Below, one piece after another: positions 2,918 through 22,518 of a stretch of DNA of 64,000 nt. A program made the translations under genes and the position numbers. Location: positions 28,756,498 to 28,820,497 of the forward strand of contig NC_088295.1 of NCBI RefSeq assembly GCF_032854445.1, given 5' to 3'. Position 1 is the stretch's first letter. Each line of letters opens with the position of its first letter. Origin of the DNA: Liolophura sinensis (Eukaryota). Under the pieces are notes generated by a model. That model had not been told where the DNA came from, did no database searches, and was given only the letters and a program-made list of their open reading frames with translations.

Positions 2918-3070
2918 ATGTGGATCCAGGTGAGAACGTTTGACGGGAAGAAGTGCGTGCGAGTTGACAGCTTGTCGAAGCTGACGAAGGTTGAGGAACT
3001 GAGAGAAAAGCTGGTGGCACCGTTCGATGCGCCCCCGGAGAGACAGAGGTTGTTTTACCGGGGAAAACAG
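2918..3070 (+). CDS. UHRF1: UHRF1 exon 1 (ubiquitin-like domain, N-terminal part): [51 protein letters not shown]
   Basis: The ATG is at 2918. There are 51 codons. A GT donor follows at 3071. The sequence aligns residue-for-residue with the vertebrate UHRF1 N-terminus (MWIQVRTMDG...RLFYRGKQ). Confidence 0.88.
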
Positions 3071-4751
3071 GTTCGTGGATCAATTGCCTGTTCGTGAACA
3101 TAATGTAGAATTGCAGTGCATTTTTTCACGTCACATAGATGCGTTGTCACATCACACCACCACTCTGTCATCAAGGTGTAATTCAGAGTATGAACAGGCA
3201 TAATCTGTTCTTCAATTCCTTCTCCTCGTTGGAAAATAAACACCTCTTGAGCTTTCACTCACGCAGCCTATCTCACGAAAAAGCATGCAAGCAGATAAGT
3301 TATGGATCAAAGATATCGTATCGAGCAAAGATTATAAAGAGGGCTTCCTGCTTTCAAGCCGGGATCTTAAATCTTCAAAGTGTGAAGTGTGGGGGATTAG
3401 GCCTATATTCCATTTTGTCAAGATATCAAGGCCTACCTCTTTAAGCCATCTAGATGCACTTGGTGTGCTATTGTAAAATTCTGACGTTCATCGTAATTTG
3501 TTAGAGAGTTCATCGCCGACTCTCAAACAAATCGCTGCATATGTGCACACTCCAACTCGATGGAGGCAGTAAGAGAGATGTGCGCTCACGCCACCCAAAC
3601 TTACCTGCACTAAAAATACAAGTTCTTTTCTATGCCTTTTTGGATTGAACTAAGAAGGTTGAAGTTGTTCTAGGAGACGGCAATCGAAACATAATAGTTT
3701 TTTTGAGGATTTCAATACCAAAACTCAGTTGCATTTCAAACCCAGAAGTAAGTCATGTGACACTTCAAAATGGCTGTCAACAGAGAGACACTTGGTACCC
3801 CTGAAGTTCTAGCAATGACTGTGACGACCACTCAGTGAGTTGATTAGTTTCATAGGTGAAGACAGTATTTTAAGAGGATAGTATTAGAGATTTCAACATA
3901 AGATTACATATGAATGATCAGAGAGTAGGTTATTTAGAGTGCCATACATGGGGAAGAGATGGGAGCTTGAAATCTGCGCCATGTTTTTTGAGAGGTGTTG
4001 ATGGAGTCAGTGTTACGATGAATATCAGAATTTTAAAATATCACAAGGAGTCCATCTAGATAAACTACCTTGTATTTTAATCCTTGAAGACACAAAAAGT
4101 TCTGAGGTGAATACCATTTCTGGCACATTGGTTTGCTGTCATTTCAATCTGCCATAACTGGAAATTTGATTGGTAGCATGTTAAAGTGACAGACTGAAAG
4201 TAACAGACTGATGTGCTCAGGCTATCTGTAGGACTGTACTGTCCAAAATCAAGAAAGCTTTGAAGCATAAACCCACCTCAAACTTTTCAGTTTTCTGAAA
4301 ATAGTTTTATAGTTAAATGTATGCTGTCAACCGTGGAAGTGTATTCCCTGTAATCTGTGACGTTTACCACAAAAGACAAATGTGCAGTTCTCGAAATTCT
4401 CCAACTACTGGATAGGCTGATGATCTGCAGAACAACTGACTGCGGCGCTGGCGTCGAATTACCCTGGTAACACCTGGCACGCCTCATTTACGATGAATCA
4501 CCTTGTAGCCAATGCATGAGGCAATGTAGCTAGGGTGGCGCGGTCAGTTCTTAAATAACTCCAAGGCTAACAGAGCTCTCCTTATGTAGTGCCCTTACAA
4601 CTGGAACCCTTCCACATGTTTAGTAGAGAATCATTCCCAAAGTTATCTGGAGTGTAGCTAGACACATCAAGGCCATTATAGGTGAACTATCTTTAACTGT
4701 AATCCAGCTGTTGCAGCTAAACACTTGACTGACGTTGGTTCAAATACTATG

Positions 4752-5031
4752 CTTGGCCTCCATGGGCCTCTTGTGACCAAGGTGATTAGCATGCCAGCGT
4801 GGTGCAATAGCCAGGAGCCTCCCACCTATGCGGCTGCTGTGAGGTCAAGTCCAGCTCCAGCCATAAGTGGCCGTACGTGGGAAGGTCTGCCAGCAACCTG
4901 CGGATGGTCGTGGGTTTCCGCCGGCCTCTGCCCGGTTTCCACCCACCATAATGCTGGCCGCCGTCATATAAGTGAAATATTCTTGAGTACAGCGTAAAAC
5001 ACCAATCAAAAAAAAAAAAAAAAAAAAAAAA
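4752..5031 (+). mobile_element. tRNA-derived SINE, near full-length copy with a 30-nt poly-A tail. It lies in UHRF1 intron 1.
   Basis: The head has A-box-like and B-box-like (GTCAAGTCC) motifs. The conserved core is ...ccataatgctggccgccgtcatataagtgaaatattcttgagtacagcgtaaaacaccaatcaaa followed by A30. Confidence 0.8.
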
Positions 5032-5190
5032 ATCCAGCCGCAAGTGGGAAGGTCTTGCAGCAACCTGCAGATTGTTGTGGGTTTCCTACGGGCTCTGTCT
5101 GGTTTCCTCCCGCCATAACGCCTGCTGCCGTCATCTAAGTGAAATATTCTTGAGTATGGGGTAAAACACTAATCAAATAAATAAATATGT
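5032..5190 (+). mobile_element. SINE, 5'-truncated copy with an (AAAT)n tail. It sits in tandem immediately after the previous copy.
   Basis: The sequence is tccagccgcaagtgggaaggtc...gtgaaatattcttgagtatggggtaaaacactaatcaaataaataaat. Confidence 0.75.
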
Positions 5191-5264
5191 TTGGCCTCCG
5201 TCTCAAGCTAAATCCATGGATATGAATATGCCAATAACATGTGTGTGTACATTCTACATTGCAG

Positions 5265-5447
5265 ATGGAAGATGGCCACTCGCTGTTTGACTACAGTGTG
5301 GGTTTGAATGACCTCATCCAGATAATGGTGAGGAACCCCCAGCCTGTAAAGCAAACCTCTGAGGACAAGACAGATGACCCCAAACGTAATAATGGCTACT
5401 CAAGCAGTGGGGAGGAAAGCAACTCTTCTGACAAAGAAAACAAACAG
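5265..5447 (+). CDS. UHRF1: UHRF1 exon 2 (rest of the UBL domain plus a Ser/Asp/Glu-rich linker): MEDGHSLFDYSVGLNDLIQIMVRN...SDKENKQ
   Basis: The acceptor is ttgcAG|ATGGAA and the donor is CAG|GTGAAC. The exon is phase 0 at both ends. It matches vertebrate [24 protein letters not shown]. Confidence 0.85.
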
Positions 5448-5695
5448 GTGAACAGGTTCAAATGACATTGCTTTGATCACTATCACTTTGGTCACTATCA
5501 CTTTGATCACTTCTGTAGTAGTTGATTATAATTGAATGACATGTTGGAGGTGCTTGACTTTTAGTGTTGATTTCTTGTCTTGCTTTCAATTCTGTGTAAC
5601 CCATCTCTGTAGAACTGTAACTTTTCACAGAAAAAAATTGTCTCTGATCCGATGTTGGTTAGTTTGGGTTGCTACATGTGTTGATATGTTTGCAG

Positions 5696-5782
5696 CCTAT
5701 TGAAACAAAACCCTCTACAAGTCAAAATGAAGCCATGGAAACTGACGAGGAGGTGTTGGGGACTGAAGGAAGTTTATTTAAG
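5696..5782 (+). CDS. UHRF1: UHRF1 exon 3 (acidic linker: PIETKPSTSQNEAMETDEEVLGTEGSLFK)
   Basis: The acceptor is tgtttgcAG and the donor is AAG|GTAAAG. It is 29 codons long. ...DEEVLGTEGSLFK corresponds to vertebrate ...DETELGLYK. Confidence 0.8.
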
Positions 5783-8482
5783 GTAAAGTGAGATTTCTGT
5801 CATTGTGACTTGTGGCAGGGCAGGTCTTTATTTTCGTAATTCTTTACCAGAATCTAAAGGGATTCCCGTAGGGTTGCTTTGCGGGAATCCACCCGAATGT
5901 AGGTCAAATCTAGTACCACAAAGAATGCTGTTACTCAAAGTTTTAATATGTGGCATATAAAATCAAACACTTTTGGGGATTCCGGGTGACACAAATATCA
6001 CGATACAGGAGTAGAAATAAGCCCCATAAATCAGAAAGGGGGCAGGGCCAGTTGACTTGGAAATCAATTGGCCCTTTCCCCATTCCCAATAAAGTTTTGA
6101 CAATGTGGGTTGATCTGATGTATATAGTTTATTATTATCTTTGTTCAAAGGATTTCATGATTACTGGTTACTGATGACATTTTTAAGAAGTTCAGGTACT
6201 AGAGGCTTGTAACCAAGAAATCAGCTGTGAATATTGGGTAAGATGTTGGTGGGCAAGACAGCCTCGCATAGACCCTATTAGTAAAATATAAACCATCAGT
6301 TCAGCTACAAAAGTCCTCTGTATCTGATTGACTAGCTGACATTTGAAATAGATTTGCTACACAGCTGTGACATTTGACAGTAGCATACCACAATAAAATC
6401 TTACGTTCAGTTCTGAAACTCCAGTGTAGATACGATCAAATTTACAAGCAAACTATTGTTCCGATTTATGTCGCTTTCATTGTTTCATGGCCGTTTAATT
6501 CATTTGCTACCACAATGTCCCAAGGCCCCCGCTACTGCAATCCTGTTCACCGCTTGGTCCCCAGCAGGCCACAGCAGAAATACAATTTTGCACTAAAAAT
6601 TCGAATTTTTTGTTTTATTTTTTTCTGGATAATTCAGTGATCAGCTTTTCGGTGGCAGTTGGTATTTTTGCTCGCTGTTGTGTGTAAACATAAAATTAAT
6701 GGCTTTATTAGAACTGTGTATCTCGCGATTTTAGTAAACTTGCAATAAAAAACGGTGTCAGAGCTTGAAAATTGGTTGTTTCCGTAGGTGGCGTTACAGT
6801 TTCCGATTGTTCAGATTCGCATCTCGTTAATTCTGGAGCGTAGTTGACCTAAAGTTAATTCCTTTCCACTTGGTTGGAAGACTCTTCTATGTCACTGCTA
6901 ACATCTGAAACCGAAATATCCGAATCGAAATCCTCCCAAATGTCTTCATTCGTAAAGCCCTCGAAATCGTCGTCTGTACTTGAGTCCGCCATTTTGGCAA
7001 AAACTCATAGAAAGGCGTCAGATCTTTTCCACATTTTTTCGCGCCATTTTATCGCTTGCAACCAATGAAAATCTGCGAACACAGCTTGTGTGGCTTCCAT
7101 AGGATCTCATAAAGCTCCCCAAAAATCCGAATTTCCGTGCAAAATTAGACCAGTCAGAGGTAGTGTATTACGCGTCTTGAGCCACTTGCCGGGAAATAAG
7201 GTCTTGTGAAATGTGCGGCTTGAGCCGCACACGGGGACCAAGGGGTATGGCTAGGCTGCAGCTAACGGCGCTCCCAGTGGCAAAAGAGTTAATAGCCAAC
7301 AAAGTATTTTTACAAAAATGTCTTCACACACCCCTTTTCATAGCTATATGTTCATTACTTTGCAATCTTCTCATTAGTTTTGGATATGTGTCAGTTTTAA
7401 TTGTCCGAATTGTCCGATGGTCAGAACCACTACCACTGCTGTAGCTATCAAACGGCCATTGCCTTGTTGTACACAGGTGGCATTTCAACAATTTAGAAGC
7501 TCATTCATTGGTCCACAGGAGAGACACAGCCAGTGGGATAGCCTGTATCATAGTAGCATTCACTAGAAACCAGCACGTTGTCTATTTTTTTTCACTTTTA
7601 CCTGCGTGCCAAAGATGGATCAAACTAAAGACTAATGAACTTCCTCTTTGTTTACCCACCATGCCTTATTTCATCAGAGTTTGTGTACACATTTAAAGCC
7701 CTTATTTTCCCTCCCTGCTGTAAAAATGTAGCTTGGCCCGCCAGACTTTCTTATCCCATCTCTTACCCACCACGTCAAAGTTTTCACAATCAGCGAGCCA
7801 GCAGTTATTTTGACCCTTGCTGTAATTCATTACATGTCAGTTTATGCTAAAGAATTCGCTTGCAATGGAAAATTACAAATTTGTTCACAGTTTATTTTGA
7901 TCTCCGTTCGTCAGTATAGACACGCATTATGACGATGTTAATGGTTGTACGTCCTCTTATTGAGAGTAGGGATAGTTATGAATTGGAAATTGGAGAACAG
8001 TTGGTCATTTTCAGAATCATTTTTGTGACTTTCTTATTTGGTTTATGGGAGTCATGGAATCCGATTCCTAGATTCCTAGATTCCTGTCGAAAGTAAAGCC
8101 CTGCAGGCTTAAGCGTCATCTGAATATTAGAGAAGTAATGGTTGTATTGTTTTTTTAACACCTCAAACCCTTTTGGTTATAGGCATATGTATCTGTCTGC
8201 TCCATTGGCTACTGATAATTTGGAACAAATTCCTCAATGGTGTATCGTTTATTCTTATATGAATGGAAAGCGTGTTGAAAATTATTTTGTGGATGTAAGA
8301 GGATATTTTATTGAGTTATGCTCCTTTATTCAATTGTCTGATTTTGTCCTGCTTTATTTCACTACCAGCCAACTGGATTACACCAAGTTCTGTGATGTTG
8401 GAACTCTTGTAAGATGAGCCAGAGTGTCCAGGGGTTTTGGTTAGCGCAATATTGTGTTATCTGTTTGCATTCTTTTCACTAG

Positions 8483-9021
8483 ATTGGAGATATTGTGGAT
8501 GCTCGTGACGTTACCATGGGAGCATGGTTTGAAGCGAAGATCATGAAAATCAGACGGGCGGAACCTGATGATGATTGTGAAGAACCTCTGGCCACACCGT
8601 TAGAAAGTTGGGACGATGAAAATGTGCCAAAGTTATCTGAAACAGACAACAATGTTACAAAGAGCGAAACAGAAAACAATGTGAAAACAGAAGAGCAAAA
8701 GACCTCTGCTTCAGAAATTGAAACAGAGGAGAACTCCAAACAGGGAGACAACCCTACAAGAAGTGATATTACTGACAAAGTCACAGAAAATTCAGAATCC
8801 AAACCAGCTGATTCAGACAAATCCAACCCAGACGAAGTTAAAAAGGAAAACCTAGATGAATCAAACAATAACAATGTAGATGAATCAGATAAAGTGCAGC
8901 AAGAGTTGGAGAATGTGTTGAAAGAAACAGTGGTTGTTAAATCTGACATTACATCTACAAAACCTGCCATACATGTGTGTGATACAAATGATGGCTTTGT
9001 CTATTCTGTGCAGTATGAAGG
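8483..9021 (+). CDS. UHRF1: UHRF1 exon 4 (first Tudor domain of the tandem Tudor, with a long acidic low-complexity insertion)
   Basis: The acceptor is cactAG|ATTGGA and the donor is GG|GTAAGT. It is 539 nt long and ends in phase 2. IGDIVDARDVTMGAWFEAKIMKIRR matches vertebrate [25 protein letters not shown], and FVYSVQYEG matches VIYHVKYDD. This exon is listed in the six-frame track as ORF 8495-9025. Confidence 0.85.
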
Positions 9022-9744
9022 GTAAGTAAAGCAGAGTGGGTACATTTTTCATTCTTTATATTTTTTTACATTGTCGAAAATTGGACTGTAATACTGCAAT
9101 TGTTGAGTTAAACCCCAATCATTCATTCTTTCATTTTCTATAATTCAAAAGTTTGTCTATATTTTGAGTGAATCATTCTGTGGAACAAATTACCAACAAA
9201 TTTTCCTCGCACAACAGGTGCTGCTGCAGTAAATTAGGACTTCAGTGACACGAATCTTAGGCCACATTAAATATGTTGTGTGCTGCAGTTTCATCTATGA
9301 CATATAAGGTCTACTCGCCGTTGTGTGAGACTGTTAAAGCTGCAGTGGAATGTAAAATGTCACTGAAAAGATGTACAGTGAAACCTAACATCTTGACAAT
9401 ACCGACCATACTGCTTGGTTCACTTTTATCTCTATTTTCAACTCGTGTTAAAACTTGTCTATTCTGAAAACTCATAGGGGTTTCCAGCCCACATTATATC
9501 AAGTGCATGTAAATCCACTTTGCACAATGCGGACAACCTGCACAGCTTGTTGCTGGACTTTGTTCACTGCTCACTGGAGAGCTTTTAGCAAAGGGTCATA
9601 GTCCAAATAGCTAGTTCATCAGGCAGTGACAACCGTTCTTTAAAACATAACTTCACATCAGAAAACTTCTTACATTACATAAGGTGTTCGTTCACAGCTG
9701 AGAACAGCAAATCAGGATGTTCGTAACGATTTATTCATTTAATT

Positions 9745-9830
9745 GATTGGTGTTTTATGCCATTCTCAAAAATATTTCACTTATACGACAGAGTCCAGCG
9801 TTATGATGGGAGGATCAGTAATGAATATAT
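9745..9830 (-). mobile_element. SINE 3' fragment (minus orientation)
   Basis: The sequence ttgattggtgttttatgccattctcaaaaatatttcacttatacgacag...ggaggatc is the reverse complement of the SINE 3' core. Confidence 0.55.
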
Positions 9831-9966
9831 ACTGGAGTTTGAATTGACTTTGAACTCAATTCTTCGCTATGAAGAGGACATGTTAGCATGTCAACTGCTG
9901 ATTTTCTGGTTTAATGATCTTTTTACATTTTATTGCTTATAAATATGATTCTATATTTAAATTGAT

Positions 9967-10207
9967 GGCCTCTGTGGCTAGCGTGCCAGTGTGACACAAT
10001 GGCCCAGGAGCCTCTTGTCAATGCAGTCTCTGTGAATTCCCGTCCAGCTCATGCTGGCTTGGCCGGGGGAAGGTCTGACAGTAACCTGCGTATGGTTGTT
10101 GGTATCCCCGAGCCAAGTTTCCTCCCACCGTAATGCTGGCCTCTGTATAAGTCAAATATTCTTGAGTATGGCATAAAACACCAGTCATGTAAAGAAATAA
10201 ATAAACA
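9967..10207 (+). mobile_element. SINE, near full-length copy (UHRF1 intron 4)
   Basis: The sequence runs from ggcctctgtggctagcgtgcc...aatggcccaggagcctcttgtcaatgc through gtcaaatattcttgagtatggcataaaacaccagtcatg to an AAAT-type tail. Confidence 0.75.
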
Positions 10208-10481
10208 TAAAAATGTAATGAAACAAAACACTGTAGTAACTTTTGACTGTAAAGTTATTACATTTTCAGATTTAAGTTTACCATTCATTTAATTCCTGGA
10301 GCGATTTTATGATTGCTGTTGCTGCACAAACCAGCTTCTTGATTTACACAAATTTTACCTTATTACCTAACACTTCGAACTTCAGGCATTTGTTAGGAAC
10401 ATAAAAATGCTGAACAGGGAATGTGCTAAGTTGATTTTTACTACCAAGTTCTAAGAAACTGTTCCTAAACTGCAAGGTGCA

Positions 10482-10699
10482 GGGCCTGTGTGGCAGTATT
10501 GTTTAGTGCGTAGTGGAGCGTAATGACCCAGGAGCCCCTCACCGGTGCGGTTTCTGTGAGTTCTTGTCCAGCTCATGCTGGCTTCCTCTCCAGCTGTACA
10601 TAAGGCCTTCCAGTAACATGTGGATGGTTGTGGGTTTTCCCCTAACATAATGCTGGCTGCTGGCTAAAACACCAGTCAAGTTAATAAAATAAATTAAAC
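10482..10699 (+). mobile_element. SINE, with a tRNA-like head and an internal deletion of part of the 3' core
   Basis: The sequence is gggcctgtgtggcag...gcgtaatgacccaggagcccctcaccggtgcggtttctgtgagttcttgtccagctcatgctggcttcctctcc...aacaccagtcaagttaataaaataaattaaa. Confidence 0.7.
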
Positions 10700-10761
10700 T
10701 GCGAGTTTTAAGAAAGGGTCAAGAATATCTTTATGAGACATCGTTACTTGGTTTGTGGCAG

Positions 10762-10957
10762 ATATGAAGATGATGATTTGACAGACGTCCGAAGCAATCA
10801 CCTGCGACCTCGTGCTAAGACAATGGTAAAGCTGAGCGATGTGGAAATCGGCCAGAAATTGATGGTAAACTATAACTACGATGAGCCGGATCAAAGAGGT
10901 TATTGGTATGACTGCGTGGTCACAGGTAAACGTGATACACGCACCATCAAGGGAGGC
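10762..10957 (+). CDS. UHRF1: UHRF1 exon 5 (second Tudor domain). The 3' boundary is unresolved. The reading frame hits TGA at 10958-10960 with no canonical in-phase donor.
   Basis: The acceptor is ggcAG|A. The translation is (G)YEDDDLTDVRSNHLRPRAKTMVKLSDVEIGQKLMVNYNYDEPDQRGYWYDCVVTGKRDTRTIKGG*. This matches vertebrate [73 protein letters not shown] at 10926 is a donor-like sequence, but it lies inside the conserved coding run and is in the wrong phase for exon 6. Confidence 0.5.
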
Positions 10958-11216
10958 TGACCGGCACGGTTTTTTTAGGGTAGGCTGTAGTGTGTGTTCT
11001 GATGTGTGGAATTTTATAATAGATTAATACAAGCATTAAACATTGATTTCTTAGGTGTTTTAATAGAATGATTTTGCTGATTTTTATTTCCAATCTGGAC
11101 AACCATAAATAATTTCAGGCTGTCTCTCTGAGACAACTCAAACATGTCATAAGTTCAAGTTTAAATTTTAAATTCGTTCAAATTCCATCAAGATGTTTTC
11201 CCACATTAATTTCCAG

Positions 11217-11344
11217 AAAAGATCTGATGCCTCTGGAGAACTGTAAGATACTGTTTGTGTATGAGCTGTTCAAGATTGAGAAGGTTGGAGCGCAGATTAA
11301 CCAGTCTGATATTGACAAGGACCCCAGCGCGTCACCTGTCAAGC
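11217..11344 (+). CDS. UHRF1: UHRF1 exon 6 (end of the tandem Tudor plus linker): (x)KDLMPLENCKILFVYELFKIEKVGAQINQSDIDKDPSASPVK
   Basis: The acceptor is aatttccAG and the donor is C|GTAAGT. It ends in phase 1, which pairs correctly with exon 7. It matches vertebrate [38 protein letters not shown]. Confidence 0.75.
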
Positions 11345-11641
11345 GTAAGTCAGACTGCGAGCAGGTTTGCAGACTAAGATGGTTGTTAACATAAACTCTG
11401 GCTGCAGGATTTGGTGTATTTAGATGTATGCTTTGGTGAATATTTTGTCCTTCATATAGCTGCATTAAATATGAATTTGAGACACATGAAATATTTTATG
11501 TCCAAAAGTCATATGGTGTCAAACATGAGTTATCTCCCCTTATGTTTATGGCCCAGGTCAAAAGTAAATTAGGGAATAATTCTAGATGTTGAGACAAAGT
11601 ATTGGCTGTCAAAATGATGATAATCTGGTCTTATTTTACAG

Positions 11642-11828
11642 GTCAGAACAAGCCTGAGTGTGACCATTGCCTTGACAACCCACGCAGGAAGTGTAAGTTC
11701 TGTGCATGTAACATTTGTGGGGGTAAAGATGACCCTGGGTCACAGATCTTGTGCGACGAGTGTGACATGGCCTACCATCTCCAGTGTCTGGATCCCCCAC
11801 TGGAAAAGATCCCGGAAGAGGATGAGTG
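11642..11828 (+). CDS. UHRF1: UHRF1 exon 7 (PHD finger): [63 protein letters not shown]
   Basis: The acceptor is ttttacAG and the donor is TG|GTATGT. It matches vertebrate [61 protein letters not shown], including all of the PHD Cys/His ligands. Confidence 0.88.
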
Positions 11829-11852
11829 GTATGTGGCTTAAAATGGTTGAAT

Positions 11853-12008
11853 GTGGCCGTACGTGGGAAGGTCATTCAGCGACCTGTGGATGGTCATGGG
11901 TATCCCCCGGGCTCTGCCCGGTTTCCTCCCACCATAATGCTGGCAGCCGTTATATAAGTGAAATATTCTTGAGTATGCCGTAAAACACCAACCAAATAAA
12001 TAAATTAA
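11853..12008 (+). mobile_element. SINE, 5'-truncated. Its 5' end lies 24 bp downstream of the UHRF1 exon 7 donor.
   Basis: The sequence is gtggccgtacgtgggaaggtcattcagcgacctgtggatggtcatgggt...tataagtgaaatattcttgagtatgccgtaaaacaccaaccaaataaataaattaaat. Confidence 0.8.
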
Positions 12009-12813
12009 ATTGTTGACATTCCAGTACACCCTTTCAGTTGTAGAAACCATTAAGTTACTTTGTCCCTGAGAGGGTGAACTGTAAACTGAAAGATTGCAAG
12101 CTACCAAAATGATATCATTATGTCTTATCCAAGCCCTGTCCAAATACTGAATAGCCTTGAAAGAAACATAGACACTCAGTCCTTGAAAGTCCTTGAAAAG
12201 ACTTTTCTTTCAAAAGTTTGGACTTAGGTCTATGAATCTGTTCACCTAGTGAAAACTTTTCAGCCAATAAATGACTTATTTGTTTGAATTTCAAGTTAAA
12301 TGATAGGGTTGTACTTAAATGTCAAGTCATATGGCTTTTGGTTCTGTGAAAGTCTTTAACACTGGCTCTAGATTTTATCCATAATGTTGGAAAGACCGAT
12401 ACCTGTTGGGTGGTGTCATTTAGTGTCTGCGTGAATTTTTCCCCTCATAACAGTAGAAAACCATTGTTTGATGAAGAACTGTGATAGGAATGAGACTTTA
12501 ACCTAAACAGTTTCCTTCAGTTGATGTCTCTCATGTTCAGGTATTAAATTAAACCAGTGGGAAATAGCCAGTGATCTGTGTTTCACTGAGAAGGACTAAT
12601 TGTCTCCCTATCCATTTGCTGATCTCTCTGTTAGAGGGGACACCTTATTTTACCTCTCTTAAAAACTGTACAGGCATTAGTTATTGTAGTTACCCATGCT
12701 TGATAAGTAATAAATTATTGCTGGCAAACCTATCTAAAAAGTTTACCAAGCATATGCATTGATCATGTGTATGAATAAATATAAGGAATATTGGTAATGC
12801 ACATGAATTGCAG

Positions 12814-12937
12814 GTACTGCCCGACGTGTAAGAATGATACCAGTCAAGTGGTTAAGGCCGGAGAAAAACTGAAAGAAAGTAAGAAGAAGTCCAAGATGGC
12901 ATCGGCTACAGCAACCACGAGTAGAGATTGGGGAAAG
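12814..12937 (+). CDS. UHRF1: UHRF1 exon 8 (end of the PHD plus a basic linker): (W)[41 protein letters not shown]
   Basis: The acceptor is aattgcAG and the donor is AAG|GTATGT. It matches vertebrate [41 protein letters not shown]. Confidence 0.88.
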
Positions 12938-13283
12938 GTATGTGGTGAAGGTCGTGACATGACCCTATCATTGAGGAACTCAAGAGCATTAAAATACGTG
13001 CAGTAAGACGACTTTTCGTAATGTGTCCTGATAGAGGAAGAGAACTGAGAAGTAGCATTTTGTTTTGTTTCCAAGGAGAACTCTTATGGACGATTTATGG
13101 GGACGGTCTTGTGTATGCTGTAATATCGAATAATTAGCACTGTCAGCTGAGGTAAGGGGAGATAATCGTGTATTGAACTTTTGCAACAATTGATTTGTGG
13201 CTTGGACAAGGAGTAGTACTTTAAAGTGACATGATTGTTGTTGTGCAAGAAACAGAAAAGTACAGGGTTTACATCCTTTGCAG

Positions 13284-13389
13284 GGTATGGCATGTGTCGG
13301 AAGAACCAAGAGTGTAGAATTGTGCCTCCAAACCATTTTGGTCCTATCCCTGGTGTTGAAGTGGGAACGCAGTGAAGTTCAGAGTACAG
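13284..13389 (+). CDS. UHRF1: UHRF1 exon 9 (start of the SRA/YDG domain). It is 106 nt long (the vertebrate orthologue's 36 residues predict 108) and carries two internal 1-bp frameshifts.
   Basis: The acceptor is cctttgcAG and the donor is CAG|GTGATC. Frame 0 gives GMACVGRTK. Frame +2 gives ECRIVPPNHFGPIPGVEVGT. Frame +1 gives VKFRVQ. Together these rebuild vertebrate [36 protein letters not shown], but only across three reading frames. Confidence 0.7.
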
Positions 13390-13912
13390 GTGATCTATAA
13401 CTGCGGAAGGATTTATAAGCAGAGCTTTGTTGTTTGGTAAACTTGGCTTTGACTCATTTGGAGGCCGAAAAGATCTTCACAGGTCGTGAATTCTGACCTC
13501 AGACTAAGGTGGTAATATCATTTGATGAATCACTCCCACTGTTGAGATCATTCGTTTGAACAAGAGCAGAAAATCTTAATTAATTCAACCCAACTGTTGC
13601 GTTGGGCCCTAAATGCTTATGCATGCTAAATTAATGATGAAACTGGTGTTTCTCTCCATTCATGACTTGCGTTGATTCCTTTCAAAGCCTTATGGCCCTC
13701 AGCTACTGGAAGCAAGAACCAGTGGAGTCAAGTCTAAACACCGATGGGTGCAGGGTTTTGCATGCCTTATGTTGTGCCTTTGTTGAGAAGTTCCAGTGAC
13801 AAGGAAAGGATTTCTAGCATTGTGGGATCTTAAAGGATTTAGAATTTCATGGCTGAAACAGATTGTACTTGTGAGATTGTAAATATGTGACATTTTGACT
13901 GTTTTGTTCCAG

Positions 13913-14017
13913 GCGAGTGAGGCAGGGATTCATCGCCCGCATGTGGCGGGAATACATGGACGTGAGGAAGAAGGGGCGTACTCTATCGTCCTGTCTGGGG
14001 GCTATGAGGATGATGTG
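13913..14017 (+). CDS. UHRF1: UHRF1 exon 10 (SRA): [35 protein letters not shown]
   Basis: The acceptor is ttgttccAG and the donor is GTG|GTAAAT. It matches vertebrate [35 protein letters not shown]. Confidence 0.9.
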
Positions 14018-14505
14018 GTAAATGCAACTTTTCAGATTCAAATTGAAGCATTGATAGTGGTACTGGAAACGAATTTGTTTTATCTAAAGATGACCTGGTG
14101 TTTAAGTTGTTATGTTAAGTCATGGCCATTCGTGCATAAAACCGTCCTAGTGCTAAGTGTAACTATCATGGCAGTGTCATGTATTTACTACTAGTTGCTA
14201 TTTGTATGATTTTATTACTATAAGGGCATCATGAAACTGACCCTTGGCACTTGCAGTGGATTGTTTGGTACGCTGTTTTCTTGAAACACTGTCTTTATGT
14301 CGGACAGTCTTTTGTATTACACAATAATCCAGTTAGTGTTAATGTGGCTAGTGTTATCCGATTCTGCATTGATTCCCAATAAAGTCACAGTTTAGTTTCA
14401 GCTTCAGTTTACACGCTCAGTTACTGTCTTGAAACACTTTATGTGATCGATTATCATTTGTTGAAAGTGTTCAAAGCTGTTATCAAGACAGTTGTTTTTG
14501 TGCAG

Positions 14506-14612
14506 GATCGAGGGGATGAATTTACATACACTGGAAGTGGCGGCCGTGATTTGTCAGGAAATAAGCGAACAGCTGAACAGTCATGTGACCAGAAACTGAC
14601 GCGCATGAACAG
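14506..14612 (+). CDS. UHRF1: UHRF1 exon 11 (SRA): [35 protein letters not shown](R)
   Basis: The acceptor is ttgtgcAG and the donor is AG|GTAATA. It ends in phase 2. It matches vertebrate [36 protein letters not shown]. Confidence 0.9.
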
Positions 14613-14799
14613 GTAATAAATATGTGCACTGGTAAAAATTACTTTACAAGATAATATATATTTATCATTTAAATAAAATTACATTACAAGAACATACAAA
14701 ACATTTCTTTGCAAAGTGAAAAAAAAAGCTGATAATTTTGAAGAAAGTTTACCTTCACATAGAATCAGGCGAAATTTTTCAGCACGCTTTTGTTTACAG

Positions 14800-14962
14800 A
14801 GCGCTAGCGAAAAATTGCAACGCTCCTCTAGATTCAAAAACTGGAACAGAGGCGAAGGACTGGAAGGGGGGTAAACCTGTTCGGGTAGTGCGCAACTGTA
14901 AAGGTCGAAAACACTCCAAGTATGCCCCAGAGGAAGGGAACCGATATGACGGAATATATAAG
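14800..14962 (+). CDS. UHRF1: UHRF1 exon 12 (SRA, with the NRYDGIYK motif): (R)[54 protein letters not shown]
   Basis: The acceptor is tgtttacAG and the donor is AAG|GTGGGT. It matches vertebrate [55 protein letters not shown]. Confidence 0.9.
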
Positions 14963-16624
14963 GTGGGTTTGTTTGGTGAAAATCAAATACCTTTCTAGTG
15001 TGATCATTAACCAAGAAGGAGAACATTACAATTTCCTCATATATGGAGGACCTGGATTCATTTGTGAGAAGATCATTTGTATGATTTGAAAATTTACACT
15101 CTTGTGTACTGTCTCGCAGGTAACAAGGATAGGTAAAATAGATAATCTTCCTCTACCTGCTTTCATAGAAGTGAAATGTTTTTTCTTACTGTGTATAATA
15201 TCAGATAAATTCATCACATCTCTGTAGATGGCTGAAACATGCAGGGCTTCCGCTGGGGCTCGCCATGGTCGCCAGTTGCGAATAAAAATTTGGATTGGCA
15301 ATAAAATCAGGGAAATGGCAAAAGTTTCTGGCGACAAAATTATTTACTCGAGAATATATACTGGCTATTGAGGAGGTGGAAATGGCCACAGTGTGAAGAC
15401 TCACAATGCACATGGCCATGTGTTGTTCTTCTCTTTTTTGACGGAAATAATGGGTTGGTGAACGTCATCACAGTTTCATATAAACCACGTGTGTTTATTT
15501 TATTCACTTTTTTTAAGCAAGCATCACATCCATTTTTTAAAATTATGTAAAAAAAGAAACGGTATCTGAGCTTCTGCTGGTGCTTGCCATTGTCGCAAAT
15601 TTAGAACGATTTTTTGAGATGGCGGTAAAAATCGAAAATATGTTTAATGTTTTTGTTGATGAATTTATTTACAAAGAAAATGTGCTAATGTTATACACAA
15701 AATACCTGGCGAAGTTTTCCTGGTATTTTTCAGGCATGAGAGTTTTCTGTGGTTTTGTGCGTATTCTCGCTATTTTTCTGATGAAAACAATCAATTTACT
15801 TTTATTTCAAACGGCTTCATTTCAGCGGAACAACAACAACAACATAGTCAGGGCGATTTTAATAGACAGAAATCTACAAAGAGGGTTCCGCATTCTTGGA
15901 AGTTGACTTACATTGGATAGCGCTTGAAAATCGTTTTTATTAACTAATGAGCGAGAATCATGGCATTTTTGGGGATGCTATTAAGGGAGATAAATATAGG
16001 TAGTGTTAGGCGTGTAAATGAAGTTACCTCCCTTGAAAACCTTAACCCTTCCACCCATGAACTAAATTTATGAATTTATTTTGTAACAAATATCTCTGGT
16101 AAAGGAAACATTTACTACAACCCTACACAGATTAATTGAAAAAATTTGCTGATTTTTTCAAAAAACAAAAACACTCGGGCATTATTTTGAGGGCATTTTG
16201 TTTTAAATATGGCATGGGATAAACTCCAGGTATAGCTGGAAGACACCAATCTGACTAGCAGCTATACCATGGCAGATAAAAACGAATTACAGATGGAGAC
16301 CACCAAGAGTCCTAACTACTGCTCCCATTCAGTCAATTGAAGATCACAAAGATTACGTCAAGGTCGCTTAGTATGGCTAAAGAAAAATTGTATTGGCTAC
16401 AAAATCTGATGAGTGGCTCAAGTGACTGGCTAAAAAAAATACTTAGACTAAATAGAGGAAACCCTGAACATGTGAAAGAAATACACGTGCATAAGAAAGA
16501 CTCGGGCTTTGTAAACTGGGCTTAGTTCTGATTGGTTTTATTTTGTGTCTGCTCACAATCAGAGTGATTACACAGAGTTGTTGATTTGCTATTTGTAACC
16601 AGTATTTATAACCTTTGTTTGAAG

Positions 16625-16762
16625 ATTGTGAAATACTGGGCAGAGAAAGGAAAATCTGGTTTCCTGGTATGGAGATATCTGCTGAGGAGAGATGACCCTA
16701 GCCCAGCTCCATGGACAAAAGCTGGCAAAATCAGGTCTGCAGAACTAGGTCTGGAAATGCAG
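16625..16762 (+). CDS. UHRF1: UHRF1 exon 13 (SRA C-terminus): [46 protein letters not shown]
   Basis: The acceptor is tttgaAG and the donor is CAG|GTAAAT. It matches vertebrate [46 protein letters not shown]. Confidence 0.9.
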
Positions 16763-17039
16763 GTAAATGCTTGTGGTGTGAAGTGTATTGTTTATGCACG
16801 GAGTTTTTTTTTTTCTGGTTCAGATTGAGTTTATTTATGTTTTAAACACTGACTATAACCAGGTATTGAGTTCAGTTCCGCTTTGGCGACTGGTAATTTT
16901 GTTAACGTGAAGTATGTACTATATACCGATATATATTAGAGAGAAAGTTCAGTTTCATTTGAGGTTCATTTCTGATCATGATTTTATTGTTGGTACACAA
17001 TTATACGTCAGGTATATTACCCTGATATAGATTGTATAA

Positions 17040-17330
17040 TAAAACAGATATTAACCATGGTGATGCATGTTCACTTGTTGGTTGTTATGATAAAGGGAAG
17101 AAAGGAACTAACAAACATTACATCGAAAGTAAACATGTGCAAAATATAGAGATAAGGCTTATCCTGCTCAGAGGTATATAATTAAACAGTTATAAACCAT
17201 GCATGTGAAATTGCTGGTTGTTAAAAATATTTGAAGAAAGGAACTAACAAATATCACATAAAAAATAAACATGTATAGGCCAAGAAACACAGAAGAGAAG
17301 GCTTACTCTGATCAGAGGTACATACTGTAA
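17040..17330. repeat. Tandem duplication of a roughly 140-bp segment (two diverged copies) in UHRF1 intron 13
   Basis: The string gttataaaccatg...gaagaaaggaactaacaaa[c/t]at[t/c]aca...aaacatgt...aggcttaYcctgNtcagaggta recurs at about 17040-17180 and about 17180-17330. Confidence 0.55.
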
Positions 17331-18680
17331 AGTATTTATTATTCGCTGGAATTCATATTCGCGGATTTACTTCAAAGATGGTTTCACAGAAATTAAGTTT
17401 CGTCAAATTAAAAAGGAAATACTGAAAAAAAAAAAAATCTTAAAACTGTTTAATTTCCACAGATATAATACGGTTGAAATTACTCAAGCATGTAAAACAG
17501 GTATTATGAGGTGGCTATGTAATCCACTTTTATTTCTTGTGGTTTTGATAATCCTCGTAATCTGGATCAGAAATTAAAACAACGGGGAATTTATCATCAC
17601 TATTTAAGATGATGACATTTGCACCTACCGTGAGCAGTATTCGAAGCCTAATATGTGTCAGTCATTTGTTTTCGGTTCGGCCTTTCACTGTTGACCTTTA
17701 ATCAACTGGCAAAGTGACCTGTAATCTTTTGAGCAGTTCAACGTAAGACACACAAATTTGCCATTATGGGAGCCAGTCATTCACACAGTCAAGCAAGACG
17801 ATTAGTTTTCGATTGTTTTAATCCTGTGTAGCTAGAAATCGCTAACATTGCGTATTTGTCATAAGGCCATTGTGTTGTATACAGTTCATAACTTGTTAGA
17901 AGCTCACTCATTGGTCCACAGGAGACACTACCAATGGATTATCGTGTACCAGTGCGACATTCTTTGGAAGCCAGCATGTGTTGTATCTACTTTTCTTTCA
18001 CTTTCTTGGCATGCCGAAGATTGATCAGACTAAATACACATGGACTCCCACTTCGTTTTATACCCGCTAAACATTATCACCATAGTTTGAATATATTAAA
18101 AGCCTACTTTTAATTTAATTACAGCCAATACACACGTGGCCACTTTGGCTTGTCACAGATGGCAGCTGTCTGCAATTGATATAGACCTCTCATCGCTACG
18201 CAAATATTTTCGAATGCAATTCAGTTCTTATCTAAAAATTTGAGTATTTGTACCAGAAAAACTCAGAATTGAATTTTTTTTTACCCTAGTTTTCAGTTTT
18301 TAACTGAATTTTCCCTCCGAATACCAGGGTAAAAAATCAACACGTATGAATCCCTCTCATGATACCTCGATGGCATGAAGTGAGTTTATTGTATTTGTTG
18401 TCTTTGTGTACATTCATAGGATAAGAACATTGGTTTCTTTTGTGCAAAGGTCAGTATGTAGGTATAAGGCTATCTCAACTTTACCTGGCGTCATATAATT
18501 GAAATATTGAGTATGGTGAAAAACACCAACCGATCAGATTTCAATTTTCCAGGTGATCTTACTATAACATTTTGAGGAATATCACACTTTTTCTTACTAG
18601 AAAGTGTGATGCTAATCACTGTGTAGTACAGGTCTGTTTTCGTCTTTACTTAACTGATACTGAAATCATTCTTTCTCCAG

Positions 18681-18777
18681 TATCCAGAAGGCTATCTCGA
18701 ATCTCAAAAGGAGAAACAGGAAAACCTGGAAAGTGCTAAGAAGGGGAAAGGAAGGAAGAGAAAATGTTCAGAATCGG
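18681..18777 (+). CDS. UHRF1: UHRF1 exon 14 (linker): YPEGYLESQKEKQENLESAKKGKGRKRKCSES(D)
   Basis: The acceptor is ctttctccAG and the donor is G|GTAATG. It ends in phase 1. YPEGYLE equals vertebrate YPEGYLEA, and it is followed by a basic K/R-rich linker as in vertebrates. Confidence 0.8.
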
Positions 18778-18952
18778 GTAATGTTAAGATTTTACTCTTA
18801 ATTTATAGTGAAAAAAGGCATCGTTGATTCATAATGTAAAATTTGAGGGGAATTTTGGGCAATATGGGTAAATTGCACTAATCAGTTTCAGTCCTATGCC
18901 TTTAAATGGACTTGGTTGCAACTGTTTGAGTGTAGCTCATTCTGATGCAACT

Positions 18953-20428
18953 TACTGGTAGTGACTAGCAAAGAGTAAGGTAGATATTGGAAACTGTGTT
19001 GTCGCACAAACTCTCTGGTAGTGACTGGCAAAGATTAAGGTAGATATTGGAAACTGTTGTTGTCACACAAACTTTCTGGTAGTGACTAGCAAGGAGTAGG
19101 GGAAATATTGGAAACTGTTGTCGCACAAACTCTCTGGTAGTGACTAGCAAAGATTAAGGTAGATATTGGAAACTGTTGTCACACAAACTCTCTGGTAGTG
19201 ACTGGCAAAGAGTAAGGTTGATATTGGAAACTGTGTTGTCACACAAACTCTCTGGTAGTGACTAGCAAAGAGTAAGGTTGATATTGGAAACTGTGTTGTC
19301 ACACAAACTCTGGTAGTGACTAGCAAAGAGTAAGGTATATACTGGAAACCGTGTTTTTGCACAAACTCTCTGGTAGTGACTAGCAAATGGTAAGGTAGAT
19401 ATTAGAAACTGTGTTGTCACACAAACTCTCTGGTAGAGAATAGCACAGAGTAAGGTAGATATTGGAAACTGTGTTGTCACACAAACTTTCTGGTAGTGAC
19501 TAGCAAAGAGTAGGGGAAATATTGGAAACTGTGTTGTCACACAAACTCTGGTAGTGACTAGCAAAGAGTAAGGTATATACTGGAAACCGTGTTTTTGCAC
19601 AAACTCTCTGGTAGTGACTAGCAAATGGTAAGGTAGATATTAGAAACTGTGTTGTCACACAAACTCTCTGGTAGAGAATAGCACAGAGTAAGGTAGATAT
19701 TGGAAACTGTTGTCGCACAAACTCTCTGGTAGTGACTAGCAAATGGTAAGGTAGATATTGGGAACTGTGTTGTCACACAAACTCTCTGGTAGTGACTAGC
19801 AAAGAGTAGGGGAAATATTGGAAACTGTTGTCGCACAAACTCTCTGGTAGTGACTAGCAAAGATTAAGGTAGATATTGGAAACTGTGTTGTCACACAAAC
19901 TCTCTGGTAGTGACTAGCAAAGAGTAAGGTATATACTGGAAACCGTGTTTTTGCACAAACCATCTGGTAGTGACTAGCAAATGGTAAGGTAGATATTGGG
20001 AACTGTGTTGTCACACAAACTCTCTGGTAGTGACTAGCAAAGAGTAAGGTATATACTGGAAACCGTGTTTTTGCACAAACTCTCTGGTAGTGACTAGCAA
20101 ATGGTAAGGTAGATATTGGGAACTGTGTTGTCGCACAAACTCTCTGGTAGAGAATAGCACAGAGTAAGGTAGATATTGGAAACTGTGTTGTCACACAAAC
20201 TTTCTGGTAGTGACTAGCAAAGAGTAAGGTATATATTGGAAACCGTGTTTTTGCACAAACCATCTGGTAGTGACTAGCAAATGGTAAGGTAGATATTGGG
20301 AACTGTGTTGTCGCACAAACTCTCTGGTAGAGAATAGCACAGAGTAAGGTAGATATTGGAAACTTGTCACACAAACTTTCTGGTAGTGACTAGCAAAGAG
20401 TATGGTAGATACTATGTTGTGGCACAAA
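18953..20428. repeat. Minisatellite of about 25 units of about 59 bp (ctggtagtgactagcaaagagtaaggtagatattggaaactgtgttgtcacacaaactct), with a higher-order variant pattern. It lies in UHRF1 intron 14.
   Basis: The tandem periodicity can be read directly from the sequence. Unit variants (gtatatactggaaaccgtgtttttgcac, atggtaaggtagatattagaaact, agagaatagcacagag, gtaggggaaatattgg) recur at spacings of about 120, 180, 238 and 355 bp. It is the source of the nested artefactual minus-strand ORFs at 18965-20427. Confidence 0.9.
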
Positions 20429-20571
20429 CTTTCATAAAATTCTTTTTCTGTCCAATGTCAAAAAGAAAAGCTTCACAACAGTATGGCTGAAATATTGCAG
20501 ACTGGCTCTTGTTGAATTTAGTCTGACTGCCTTTAAATTACCTGATCAGTTGTAATATTCTTTCATAACAG

Positions 20572-20717
20572 ATTCATCCCCTCGAAATTCTCCTGGGAAG
20601 AAAGCTAAAGTTGCGGAGTACAAGGTTTCCAAAGAGGTGAAGAAATTCATTCAGGAGGATAAAATGAACAAGAAGGTTTGGGATGAGGCTCTTGCAGTCA
20701 CAAAAGAAGGAGGAAAG
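20572..20717 (+). CDS. UHRF1: UHRF1 exon 15 (basic linker): (D)SSPRNSPGKKAKVAEYKVSKEVKKFIQEDKMNKKVWDEALAVTKEGGK
   Basis: The acceptor is cataacAG and the donor is AAG|GTAGAA. It starts in phase 1, which matches exon 14. It matches vertebrate [48 protein letters not shown]. Confidence 0.8.
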
Positions 20718-21432
20718 GTAGAAATTCCTAGAATGTAACAATTCATGCTTCACTTATCATTTGTCCATCTTTTCACCTAAATTTTCATACCTGACGTCAG
20801 ATTTGACTTCATTGAGTTAGGTTTTGTACTAGGCTCTAAAACCAGGAAATTGACAGTAAGCTTGACCAGACCTGTCAATCACTTGATTGTAGCCTGAGAA
20901 TTATTTTTCTTGATACCCTTAAAATTACATGCTGCATACTTGTGTGGATGAGGAATTGCAGCCAATAAGATCATTTTACATAGCTTGAGATTTGCATTAT
21001 TGTAAAATATTTATTCCAATTAACCTGGAAAAGGTGAATTTTCGGCATGGAAATTGTCTGGAAATTTGAAAATCATCAACGTGTACAAACCTGATTTAAT
21101 GTCAATTTGGGTATATGGTTGTGTCCCATTGGGCAAACTGCATGGATCTATCACTGATTTTATGTTTGAATACCTTCACTTGCAACCTTCACTAAAATGG
21201 TTGTTATACATTGTAAATCTTTTTTAATCATGGGGTCAGTTCTGTGCTGGAACACATCTTTCTTTCAGTCTGAAACAAATTCAGTCTAGTTTACCTTGAA
21301 ACTGGAGTGTCTTCTTAACATCCTGTCTTGTTAGTGTCTGTGATTGTACATAGCTTATTAGTAGGTGGATCACCAGAATTAACATGGAAATCAATGATTT
21401 GAGCAGGTCTAATCTATTTTCTTGTTGACCAG

Positions 21433-21531
21433 GTGTTCTTGGAGAAGGTGGAGGAGCTATTGCTGTGTATTTGCTGTCAGGAGCTAGTGTATAAACCCGT
21501 CACCACAGACTGTCATCACAATATCTGTCTG
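21433..21531 (+). CDS. UHRF1: UHRF1 exon 16 (N-terminal half of the RING finger): [33 protein letters not shown]
   Basis: The acceptor is ttgaccAG and the donor is CTG|GTGAGT. It matches vertebrate [31 protein letters not shown]. Confidence 0.88.
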
Positions 21532-22392: not shown

Positions 22393-22518
22393 TATTTATT
22401 TATTTGATTGGTGTTTTACACAGTACTCAAGAATATTTCACTTATACAATGGCGGCCAGCATTATGGTGGGAGGAAAGTGGTAACCTATGACCATCGGCA
22501 GGTTGCTGGTCTGGCAAG
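22393..22518 (-). mobile_element. SINE, partial (minus orientation). UHRF1 intron 16.
   Basis: The sequence is atttatttatttgattggtgttttacacagtactcaagaatatttcacttatacaatggcggccagcattatggtgggaggaaag... Confidence 0.7.

What the first reader, a model, noticed from the sequence alone, without database searches (positions are those of the whole stretch)
10900..11220. UHRF1 exon 5 runs into an in-frame stop and has no phase-compatible donor
Conserved Tudor-2 coding sequence (...YWYDCVVTGKRDTRTIK, matching vertebrate ...[18 protein letters not shown]) continues straight through a GTAAAC donor-like site at 10926 and ends ...GG-TGA at 10958. There is no GT or GC donor in the phase needed by exon 6 (11217, which requires a phase-2 partner). 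About six residues equivalent to vertebrate ELYANV are missing. Like the exon-9 lesions, this is either an indel error or a real lesion that removes the exon 5/6 junction. The alternative splice 10925|11222 would delete 19 conserved residues and uses a poor acceptor.
Basis: partly seen in the sequence, partly recalled or inferred. Interest (0 to 1): 0.7.

Follow-up and report, generated by a model that had tools for sequence, protein, structure and literature searches.

The report
Two-base frameshift in UHRF1 exon 5
The stop codon in UHRF1 exon 5 comes from two surplus bases just before an otherwise intact, conserved exon end and splice site, and it is most likely an indel error in the assembly rather than a broken gene.

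Summary
The in-frame TGA at 10958 is really there. In the upstream frame, no phase-2 GT/GC donor lies between 10907 and that stop.

Read two bases further on, 10957-10979 encodes LTGTVFLG. The exon then ends GG|GTAGGC at 10979|10980. That is a phase-2 donor which joins exon 6 at 11217 (GG+A = Gly, then KDLMPLENCKILF).

Two related-species genomic contigs (Logan SRR26493808 and SRR26493809) carry the same exon, donor, ~237-nt intron and acceptor. They read ...RTIKELTATVFLG in one frame. The window has GGAGG (10952-10956) where they have one Glu codon, a surplus of 2 nt.

Exon 9 has two 1-nt deficits. The rest of the 17-exon gene is intact:
- All introns are GT-AG.
- ω is about 0.02-0.04 in exons 2, 5 and 6, including the stretch downstream of the lesion.
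- The repaired protein shows 0 deviations at 187 near-invariant columns.
- The UBL, tandem Tudor (TTD), PHD and SRA (SAD/SRA) domains pass Pfam; the RING match is weak.

Most likely this is a consensus/assembly indel error in a functional UHRF1 (about 0.8). A very recent real null allele or young duplicate pseudogene is not excluded (about 0.12). Interest is low.

The parts
2918..23246 (+). UHRF1 orthologue: 17 coding exons from ATG 2918 to TAA 23244-23246. All 16 introns are GT-AG.
   Evidence: tblastn with human, Lingula and Solemya UHRF1. Exon table, splice sites and phases. Pfam on the repaired protein finds UBL, TTD, PHD and SRA, plus a weak RING match.
10762..10979 (+). Exon 5 (second Tudor repeat): 218 nt as assembled, 216 nt expected. 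It is entered in phase 2 and left in phase 2.
   Evidence: Alignment with L001 and L002.
10952..10956 (+). The lesion: GGAGG stands where the relatives have one Glu codon (GAA). This is a net surplus of 2 nt. The simplest reading is two extra G in AAG-GAG-CTG; a single 2-nt insertion plus a substitution would also fit.
   Evidence: Three-way DNA alignment. 116 of 120 homologues have exactly 14 residues across TRTIKELTGTVFLG, and 104 of 120 have E at this position.
10958..10960 (+). Premature TGA, created only by the frame shift. It lies inside the codons CTG-ACC of the true frame.
10957..10979 (+). The coding tail of exon 5 in the +2 frame: LTGTVFL plus the first two bases (GG) of a split Gly codon.
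   Evidence: Relatives read LTATVFLG and LTATVLLG. This tail plus exon 6 gives ω = 0.021 (16 synonymous and 2 non-synonymous differences).
10980..10985 (+). The true exon-5 donor, GTAGGC (AGG|GTAGGC). It is phase 2 in the true frame.
   Evidence: Conserved as AGG|GTAGGT in L001 and L002.
10980..11216 (+). Intron 5, 237 nt, ending tttccAG. It is roughly 65-70% identical to the relatives by eye on the alignment (not computed separately), against about 90% for the exons.
11217..11344 (+). Exon 6. Its first base A completes GG+A = Gly, followed by KDLMPLENCKILFVYELFKIEKVGAQ...SPVK. The donor is C|GTAAGT.
10926..10931 (+). It is not a splice site: it is the third base of Gly GGT followed by Lys AAA.
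   Evidence: The relatives have GGC-AAA here. It is phase 1 in the upstream frame.
13284..13389 (+). Exon 9: 106 nt as assembled, 108 expected. One base is missing after 13310 (AAG.AG TGT, expected K-E/Q/K-C). One G is missing after 13374 (TG.AAG, where Trp is invariant).
   Evidence: 84 exon-9 fragments from other animals show the conserved exon-9 pattern GMACVGR..C..VP.NHFGPIPG..VG..WKFRVQ, as judged by eye from the printed sequences; fragment lengths were not computed and some fragments start at Met.

Best explanation
Exon 5 of a normal, selectively constrained UHRF1 gene carries two surplus bases in the assembled sequence. GGAGG at 10952-10956 stands in place of one Glu codon. This shifts the frame by +2 and exposes a TGA at 10958.

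The rest of the exon is present and conserved: LTGTVFLG at 10957-10979, the phase-2 donor GG|GTAGGC at 10979|10980, the 237-nt intron, and the acceptor before 11217. Removing the two bases gives ...GKRDTRTIKELTGTVFLG|KDLMPLENCKILF..., which is colinear with every UHRF1 examined.

The surplus, like the two single-base deficits in exon 9, is most likely a consensus or base-calling indel error of the assembly, in short G/purine runs. The living animal then makes a full-length protein with UBL, TTD, PHD, SRA and RING domains.

What is shown: the anatomy of the lesion, the intact junction, and the purifying selection. What is inferred: that the cause is technical rather than biological.
For: Anatomy
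- Translating three frames shows RTIKGG* in one frame and LTGTVFLG followed by the donor in another.
- The GT at 10980 is phase 2 only in the shifted frame.
- Two related-species contigs, L001 (SRR26493808) and L002 (SRR26493809), read ATCAAGGAA--TTAACTGCCACTGTTTTTTTAGG|GTAGGT, which is IKELTATVFLG in one frame. The window has exactly 2 extra nt.
- 116 of 120 homologues have the length that removing 2 nt restores.

Constraint
- ω = 0.03 for exon 5, 0.014 for exon 6, and 0.021 for the stretch downstream of the lesion, at dS about 0.7-0.8.
- The repaired 908-aa protein has 0 deviations at 187 near-invariant columns of a 121-sequence alignment. About half of the genuine orthologues show 1 or more.
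- All 16 introns are GT-AG with consistent phases.
- UBL, TTD, PHD and SRA pass Pfam, and the protein is colinear with the human TTD-PHD crystal structures.

Genome context
- CpG observed/expected is 0.41 with a TpG/CpA excess. This is the signature of a cytosine-methylated genome that needs UHRF1.
- UHRF1 is retained in the three annelids examined in PMC11292947.

Pattern of lesions
- There are three indel sites, each of ±1-2 nt in a short purine/G context, in a gene with no other damage.
- Long-read and collapsed-haplotype assemblies are known to create such apparent frameshifts (PMC12007338 and PMC8445201).
Against: - No reads or transcripts from the same species could be examined. Exact look-ups of the exon-5 ORF, with or without the frameshift, found nothing. 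The technical origin is therefore inferred, not shown.
- The only other gene in the window, an HSP70 N-terminus of about 940 nt, has no frameshift. This is compatible with an error rate of roughly 1 per kb (P about 0.25-0.35), but it gives no positive support.
- The longest homopolymer in the exon, T7 at 10970-10976, has the same length as in L001. A simple homopolymer-length error model does not fit neatly.
- Short-run indels are also the commonest real mutations.
Confidence: 0.8

Rival explanations
1. The lesions are real. This copy of UHRF1 is a very recently inactivated gene, either a null allele, a unitary pseudogene, or a young segmental-duplicate pseudogene. Its mRNA terminates at TGA 10958 after UBL and most of the TTD, and would be a target for nonsense-mediated decay.
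For: Three separate frame-disrupting sites sit in one gene. The neighbouring HSP70 is clean. No same-species data contradict the assembly.
Against: There is no sign of relaxed constraint. ω is 0.02-0.04 in the structured exons, including downstream of the lesion. There are 0 of 187 deviations at near-invariant positions, no in-frame nonsense codon, and no damaged splice site. With 3-4 neutral indels, my rough estimate from a typical 1:8 indel:substitution ratio is about 20-30 neutral substitutions, of which about 4 would be replacements at invariant columns (P of seeing none about 0.02-0.1). The window is strongly CpG-depleted, so the lineage uses DNA methylation.
Confidence: 0.12
2. The frameshift is real but is bypassed in the transcript by alternative splicing. 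Candidates are the reader's 10925|11222 junction, or a GC donor at 10955|10956 joined to 11222. Either would produce an in-frame protein that lacks part of Tudor 2.
For: Phase-1 donors exist at 10926 (GTAAAC) and 10956 (GCTGAC), and an AG at 11220-11221 would give a phase-1 acceptor.
Against: The GT at 10926 is GC in both relatives, so it is merely a synonymous Gly codon. The splice would delete 10-19 residues that are conserved in 116 of 120 homologues. The canonical donor and acceptor are conserved. It would not repair exon 9.
Confidence: 0.02
3. Translation crosses the lesion by programmed ribosomal frameshifting, or the transcript is edited.
For: None beyond the existence of the shift. The three lesions sum to zero (+2, -1, -1).
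Against: The relatives have no shift at this site, so there is no conserved recoding signal. A +2 shift within 6 nt of the stop has no known mechanism in animal nuclear genes (my own knowledge). By my own arithmetic, not a tool result, a net sum of zero is expected by chance in about 3 of 8 cases for four ±1 events.
Confidence: 0.01

Closest known systems
UHRF1 (ICBP90/Np95) orthologues of lophotrochozoans, e.g. Lingula anatina, Solemya velum, Pomacea canaliculata
   Same: After repair the domain order is the same (UBL-TTD-PHD-SRA-RING). Identity is 70-72% over 696 shared alignment columns. The protein is colinear through the lesion region: YWYD..GKRDTRTIKEL..TVF.G.DL.PLE.CK.
   Different: The assembled sequence has +2 nt in exon 5 and -1 and -1 nt in exon 9. 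A long acidic, low-complexity insert lies inside Tudor 1 (exon 4). No database protein exceeds about 75% identity, so the species or lineage is not represented by an annotated UHRF1.
The same exon in two related species (Logan contigs SRR26493808_64128 and SRR26493809_140849)
   Same: Exon boundaries, donor GG|GTAGG, intron length of about 237 nt, acceptor, and phase are the same. Amino-acid identity is 94-98% in exons 5-6.
   Different: They have a single open frame (IKELTATVFLG). dS from the window is about 0.7-0.8, so they are not the same species.
Apparent frameshifts produced by long-read or collapsed-haplotype assemblies (PMC12007338, PMC8445201)
   Same: Isolated 1-2 nt indels split an otherwise conserved gene, with no other sign of decay.
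   Different: The sequencing platform and read support of this assembly are unknown, so membership in this class is inferred rather than demonstrated.
Human UHRF1 TTD-PHD crystal structures (e.g. 8xv4, 4gy5, 3ask)
   Different: There is a two-residue length difference after the Gly, and the Tudor 1 insert.

Membership tests
UHRF1 orthologue | UBL, tandem Tudor, PHD, SRA/YDG and C-terminal RING domains in that order | tested here: met
   Pfam on the repaired protein gives ubiquitin 3-75, TTD 139-415, PHD 458-503 and SAD_SRA 557-724. The RING match is weak (zf-RING_4, 22 bits against a cutoff of 27), but a cysteine/histidine-rich RING-like stretch, CICCQEL...CHHNICLDC...CPACR, is visible by eye in the repaired protein; C3HC4 spacing was not checked. 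The 120 best-scoring database proteins listed, where named, are UHRF1/UHRF2 or unnamed proteins with the same domains.
UHRF1 orthologue | An uninterrupted reading frame across all coding exons | tested here: not met
   The raw spliced CDS stops at 10958 and regains frame only after the second exon-9 lesion.
UHRF1 orthologue | Exon 5/6 intron at the conserved position and phase (split Gly codon after ..VFL) | tested here: met
   GG|GTAGGC ... AG|A in the window against GG|GTAGGT ... AG|G in L001 and L002.
UHRF1 orthologue | Hemimethylated-DNA binding and E3 ligase activity | not testable with these tools
   This needs biochemistry.
Pseudogene (real inactivation) | Disabling lesions present in the sequence | tested here: met
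   +2 in exon 5, and -1 and -1 in exon 9.
Pseudogene (real inactivation) | Relaxed selective constraint (ω approaching 1, replacements at invariant sites, decayed splice sites) | tested here: not met
   ω is 0.014-0.043 in exons 2, 5 and 6. There are 0 of 187 deviations at near-invariant columns. All splice sites are canonical.
Pseudogene (real inactivation) | Lesions confirmed in independent reads or transcripts of the species | not testable with these tools
   No same-species sequence was found.
Assembly/consensus indel artefact | Isolated 1-2 nt indels in short runs within an otherwise intact, constrained gene | tested here: met
Assembly/consensus indel artefact | Comparable frameshifts in other conserved genes of the same assembly | tested here: inconclusive
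   There is only one other gene in the window. The HSP70 nucleotide-binding domain is clean over 312 codons, which is too short to decide.
Assembly/consensus indel artefact | Lesion absent from, or unsupported by, the underlying reads | not testable with these tools
   No read data are available.
Programmed frameshift / recoding site | The shift and its signal conserved in related species | tested here: not met
   The relatives read straight through in one frame.

The most novel reading that the evidence does not exclude
The three frameshifts are genuine. In that case a spiralian with a strongly CpG-depleted, historically methylated genome has very recently lost its UHRF1, or carries a freshly dead duplicate. 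That would catch the first step in dismantling the DNMT1/UHRF1 maintenance-methylation system.
Probability: 0.1. Interest if true: 0.5.

Novelty: not a real feature. Interest (0 to 1): 0.1.

Why it matters
Mainly for annotation. A gene finder, or a human reader, that keeps the upstream frame will truncate or mis-splice UHRF1 here and could wrongly report loss of a core DNA-methylation factor. The correct model is exon 5 = 10762-10979 minus 2 nt, joined to 11217, which gives a full-length 908-aa UHRF1. The three lesions in 2.7 kb of coding sequence also suggest that the assembly has an indel error rate of around 1 per kb in coding sequence. That should be kept in mind for every other 'lesion' flagged in this genome. 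Only if reads confirmed the indels would there be a biological story, namely incipient loss of UHRF1.

Tried and rejected
1. Same-species evidence. A search with the exon 5-6 peptide found only two related-species exon ORFs. Exact look-ups of the window's own exon-5 ORF, frameshifted or repaired, each with two start-codon choices, found nothing. The SRA run numbers occur in no paper.
2. Exon 9 in the relatives. The search returned 84 exon fragments from other animals but none from the close relatives. The exon-9 lesions are therefore confirmed only against distant homologues.
3. A 1-nt deletion model for exon 5 (giving RTIKGRLTG...). I rejected it because it adds a residue that 116 of 120 homologues lack, and because the relatives' DNA is 2 nt shorter.
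4. Both rejected.
5. Other genes in 23-64 kb as controls for frameshift rate. ORF lists and a crude codon-usage score, which was poorly trained, showed nothing convincingly coding. I did not pursue this with Pfam.
6. Rfam found nothing in the window.
7. Species identification. UHRF1 is about equally similar (68-72%) to brachiopod, gastropod, bivalve, cephalopod and nemertean proteins. The lineage remains an unidentified lophotrochozoan.

Full report
**What is in the window**

tblastn with human UHRF1 (sequence recalled from memory and validated by the hits), and with Lingula and Solemya UHRF1, places a complete UHRF1 gene on the + strand from ATG 2918 to TAA 23244-23246.

I built the exon table by hand. 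There are 17 coding exons, counting a small exon 3 (5696-5782) that I recognised only through a related-species contig. All 16 introns are GT-AG.
- exon 5 = 10762-10979
- exon 6 = 11217-11344
- exon 9 = 13284-13389

The best database matches are lophotrochozoan UHRF1 proteins at 62-75% identity, and none is closer. The species is therefore an unidentified spiralian without an annotated UHRF1 in the collection.

**Checking the observation**

The frame entering exon 5 reads ...YWYDCVVTGKRDTRTIKGG and hits TGA at 10958. In that frame there is no phase-2 GT/GC between 10907 and the stop.

The frame displaced by +2 reads QGRLTGTVFLG across 10950-10980. The sequence AGG|GTAGGC places a GT at 10980. 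An exon ending at 10979 leaves two bases (GG) in that displaced frame. With the first base of exon 6 (A, 11217) this makes Gly, followed by KDLMPLENCKILFVYELFKIEK.

Homologues read ...RTIKELYATVFLGADLMALEDCKILF (Lingula) or ...[24 protein letters not shown] (human). The residues called 'missing' are therefore present, and a phase-compatible donor exists. Both were hidden by a frame shift between 10951 and 10957.

**Related sequences**

A search with the exon 5-6 peptide found one 78-residue ORF from a Logan assembly of SRR26493808, and its cluster sibling from SRR26493809. Their contigs, L001 (1,249 bp) and L002 (3,831 bp), are genomic and carry the same exons and introns.

In the three-way alignment both relatives read ATC AAG GAA TTA ACT GCC ACT GTT TTT TTA GG|GTAGGT, which is IKELTATVFLG in one frame. 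The window reads ATCAAG-GGAGG-CTGACCGGCACGGTTTTTTTAGG|GTAGGC. Five bases (10952-10956) stand where the relatives have one Glu codon, a net surplus of 2 nt.

The donor, the ~237-nt intron and the acceptor are all conserved. Exon identity is about 90%, whereas intron identity is roughly 65-70% by eye on the alignment. The overall aligned region is 78-79% identical.

Removing 2 nt gives a 216-nt exon and the peptide TRTIKELTGTVFLG. 116 of 120 homologues have exactly this length, and 104 of 120 have Glu at the lesion position. A 1-nt-deletion model would add a residue and is rejected.

The GTAAAC at 10926 is Gly-GGT plus Lys-AAA. The relatives have GGC, so it is not a splice site.

**Exon 9**

The exon is 106 nt instead of 108. 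One base is missing after 13310 (AAG.AG TGT) and one G is missing after 13374 (TG.AAG, where Trp is invariant). This is supported by comparison with Lingula and Solemya UHRF1 and with 84 exon-9 fragments from other animals, which by eye share the conserved GMACVGR...WKFRVQ pattern.

The raw spliced CDS therefore runs out of frame from 10952 to 13374 and then regains frame, because +2 -1 -1 = 0. By my own arithmetic, a zero sum is expected by chance in roughly 3 of 8 cases for four ±1 events. I attach no meaning to it.

**Real lesion or artefact?**

Evidence that the gene is under full constraint:
- Against the relatives (dS about 0.5-0.8), ω is 0.03 for exon 5, 0.014 for exon 6, 0.04 for exon 2, and 0.021 for the stretch downstream of the lesion (10957-10977 plus exon 6; 16 synonymous against 2 non-synonymous differences).
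- Exons 3 and 4, which hold the linker and the acidic insert, are looser at ω about 0.3. That is expected for low-complexity sequence.
- The repaired 908-aa protein deviates at none of 187 near-invariant columns in a 121-sequence alignment. About half of the bona fide orthologues deviate at one or more.
- There are no nonsense codons apart from those created by the shifts, and no damaged splice sites.
- The UBL, TTD, PHD and SRA domains pass Pfam, the RING match is weak, and the TTD-PHD part is colinear with the human crystal structures.
- The window is strongly CpG-depleted (observed/expected 0.41; TpG/CpA 1.35). That is the footprint of germline cytosine methylation.
- UHRF1 is retained with a human-like architecture in spiralians that methylate their DNA (PMC11292947).

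If 3-4 indels had accumulated neutrally, I would expect some 20-30 substitutions in the CDS, of which about 4 would be replacements at the invariant columns. This uses an indel:substitution ratio of about 1:8, which is my own estimate. Seeing none has a probability of roughly 0.02-0.1.

Isolated 1-2 nt indels that split otherwise perfect genes are a well-documented product of long-read or collapsed-haplotype consensus sequences (PMC12007338, PMC8445201).

I therefore put about 0.8 on a technical origin and about 0.12 on real, very recent inactivation (null allele or young duplicate). The small remainder covers splicing bypass or recoding.

**Caveats**

- No same-species reads or transcripts were available.
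- The only control gene in the window is an HSP70 N-terminus on the minus strand (944->3). It is clean over 312 codons. That is compatible with an error rate of about 1 per kb but does not demonstrate it.
- The T7 run in exon 5 has the same length as in L001, so a pure homopolymer-length error model does not fit neatly.

**Comparison with known things and verdict**

The locus is an ordinary UHRF1 orthologue. The 'lesion' is a 2-nt surplus in the assembled sequence, and the exon 5/6 junction is intact and conserved.

As a biological feature it is most likely not real, and interest is low. The practical output is the corrected gene model, and a warning about indel errors in this assembly.

Noticed in passing
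window 3-944 (- strand): The N-terminal 312 residues of an HSP70-family gene (ATG at 944, running off the window). It is intronless here, colinear with the human HSPA1A nucleotide-binding domain, and lies head-to-head with UHRF1, whose ATG is about 2 kb away.
   Followed up: partly
window 4961, 5128, 9763, 10140, 11947, 22424, 32485, 45139, 45468, 59400, 61698, 63330 (both strands): Twelve copies of an interspersed repeat of a few hundred nt, whose translation reads like ..DWCFTPYSRIFHLYDGGQHYGGRKPG..GKPTTI.RLL.DLPTYG... Several sit in UHRF1 introns, and one lies just upstream of exon 5. There is no Rfam match. It is probably a lineage-specific SINE-like element.
   Followed up: partly
window 18955-20411; 29461-30635; 33514-34330; 42874-43134: Minisatellite arrays: 60 nt x 24.5 copies (inside a UHRF1 intron), 69 nt x 17 copies at 99% identity, 31 nt x 26 copies, and a 34/76/110-nt array.
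   Followed up: no
whole window: There is strong CpG depletion (observed/expected 0.41, down to 0.28 in some 8-kb bins) with a TpG/CpA excess of 1.35. It is not limited to the gene bodies, which suggests broad historical cytosine methylation.
   Followed up: partly
window ~10000-56000 (+ strand): There is a sustained positive GC skew and negative AT skew, extending well beyond the 3' end of UHRF1 (23246). This could be transcription-strand asymmetry from a second long + strand gene. No convincing exons were found in 23-64 kb.
   Followed up: partly
window 5696-5782 (+): A small UHRF1 exon 3 (PIETKPSTSQNEAMETDEEVLGTEGSLFK; 87 nt, phase 0/0). It is invisible to tblastn with distant homologues and was found only through the related contig L002. 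The intron after it carries about 2.3 kb that the relative lacks.
   Followed up: yes
window 8483-9021 (+): Exon 4 holds a roughly 130-residue acidic, Asn/Glu/Ser-rich insert inside Tudor repeat 1. It is shared with the relatives (ω about 0.29, with one in-frame 3-nt indel), and Lingula has an insert of similar position but different sequence.
   Followed up: partly
window 10952-10956, 13310/13311, 13374/13375: The three UHRF1 frame lesions sum to zero (+2, -1, -1), so the raw spliced CDS length is a multiple of 3 and the C-terminal 60% of the protein is back in frame. I judged this a coincidence.
   Followed up: yes
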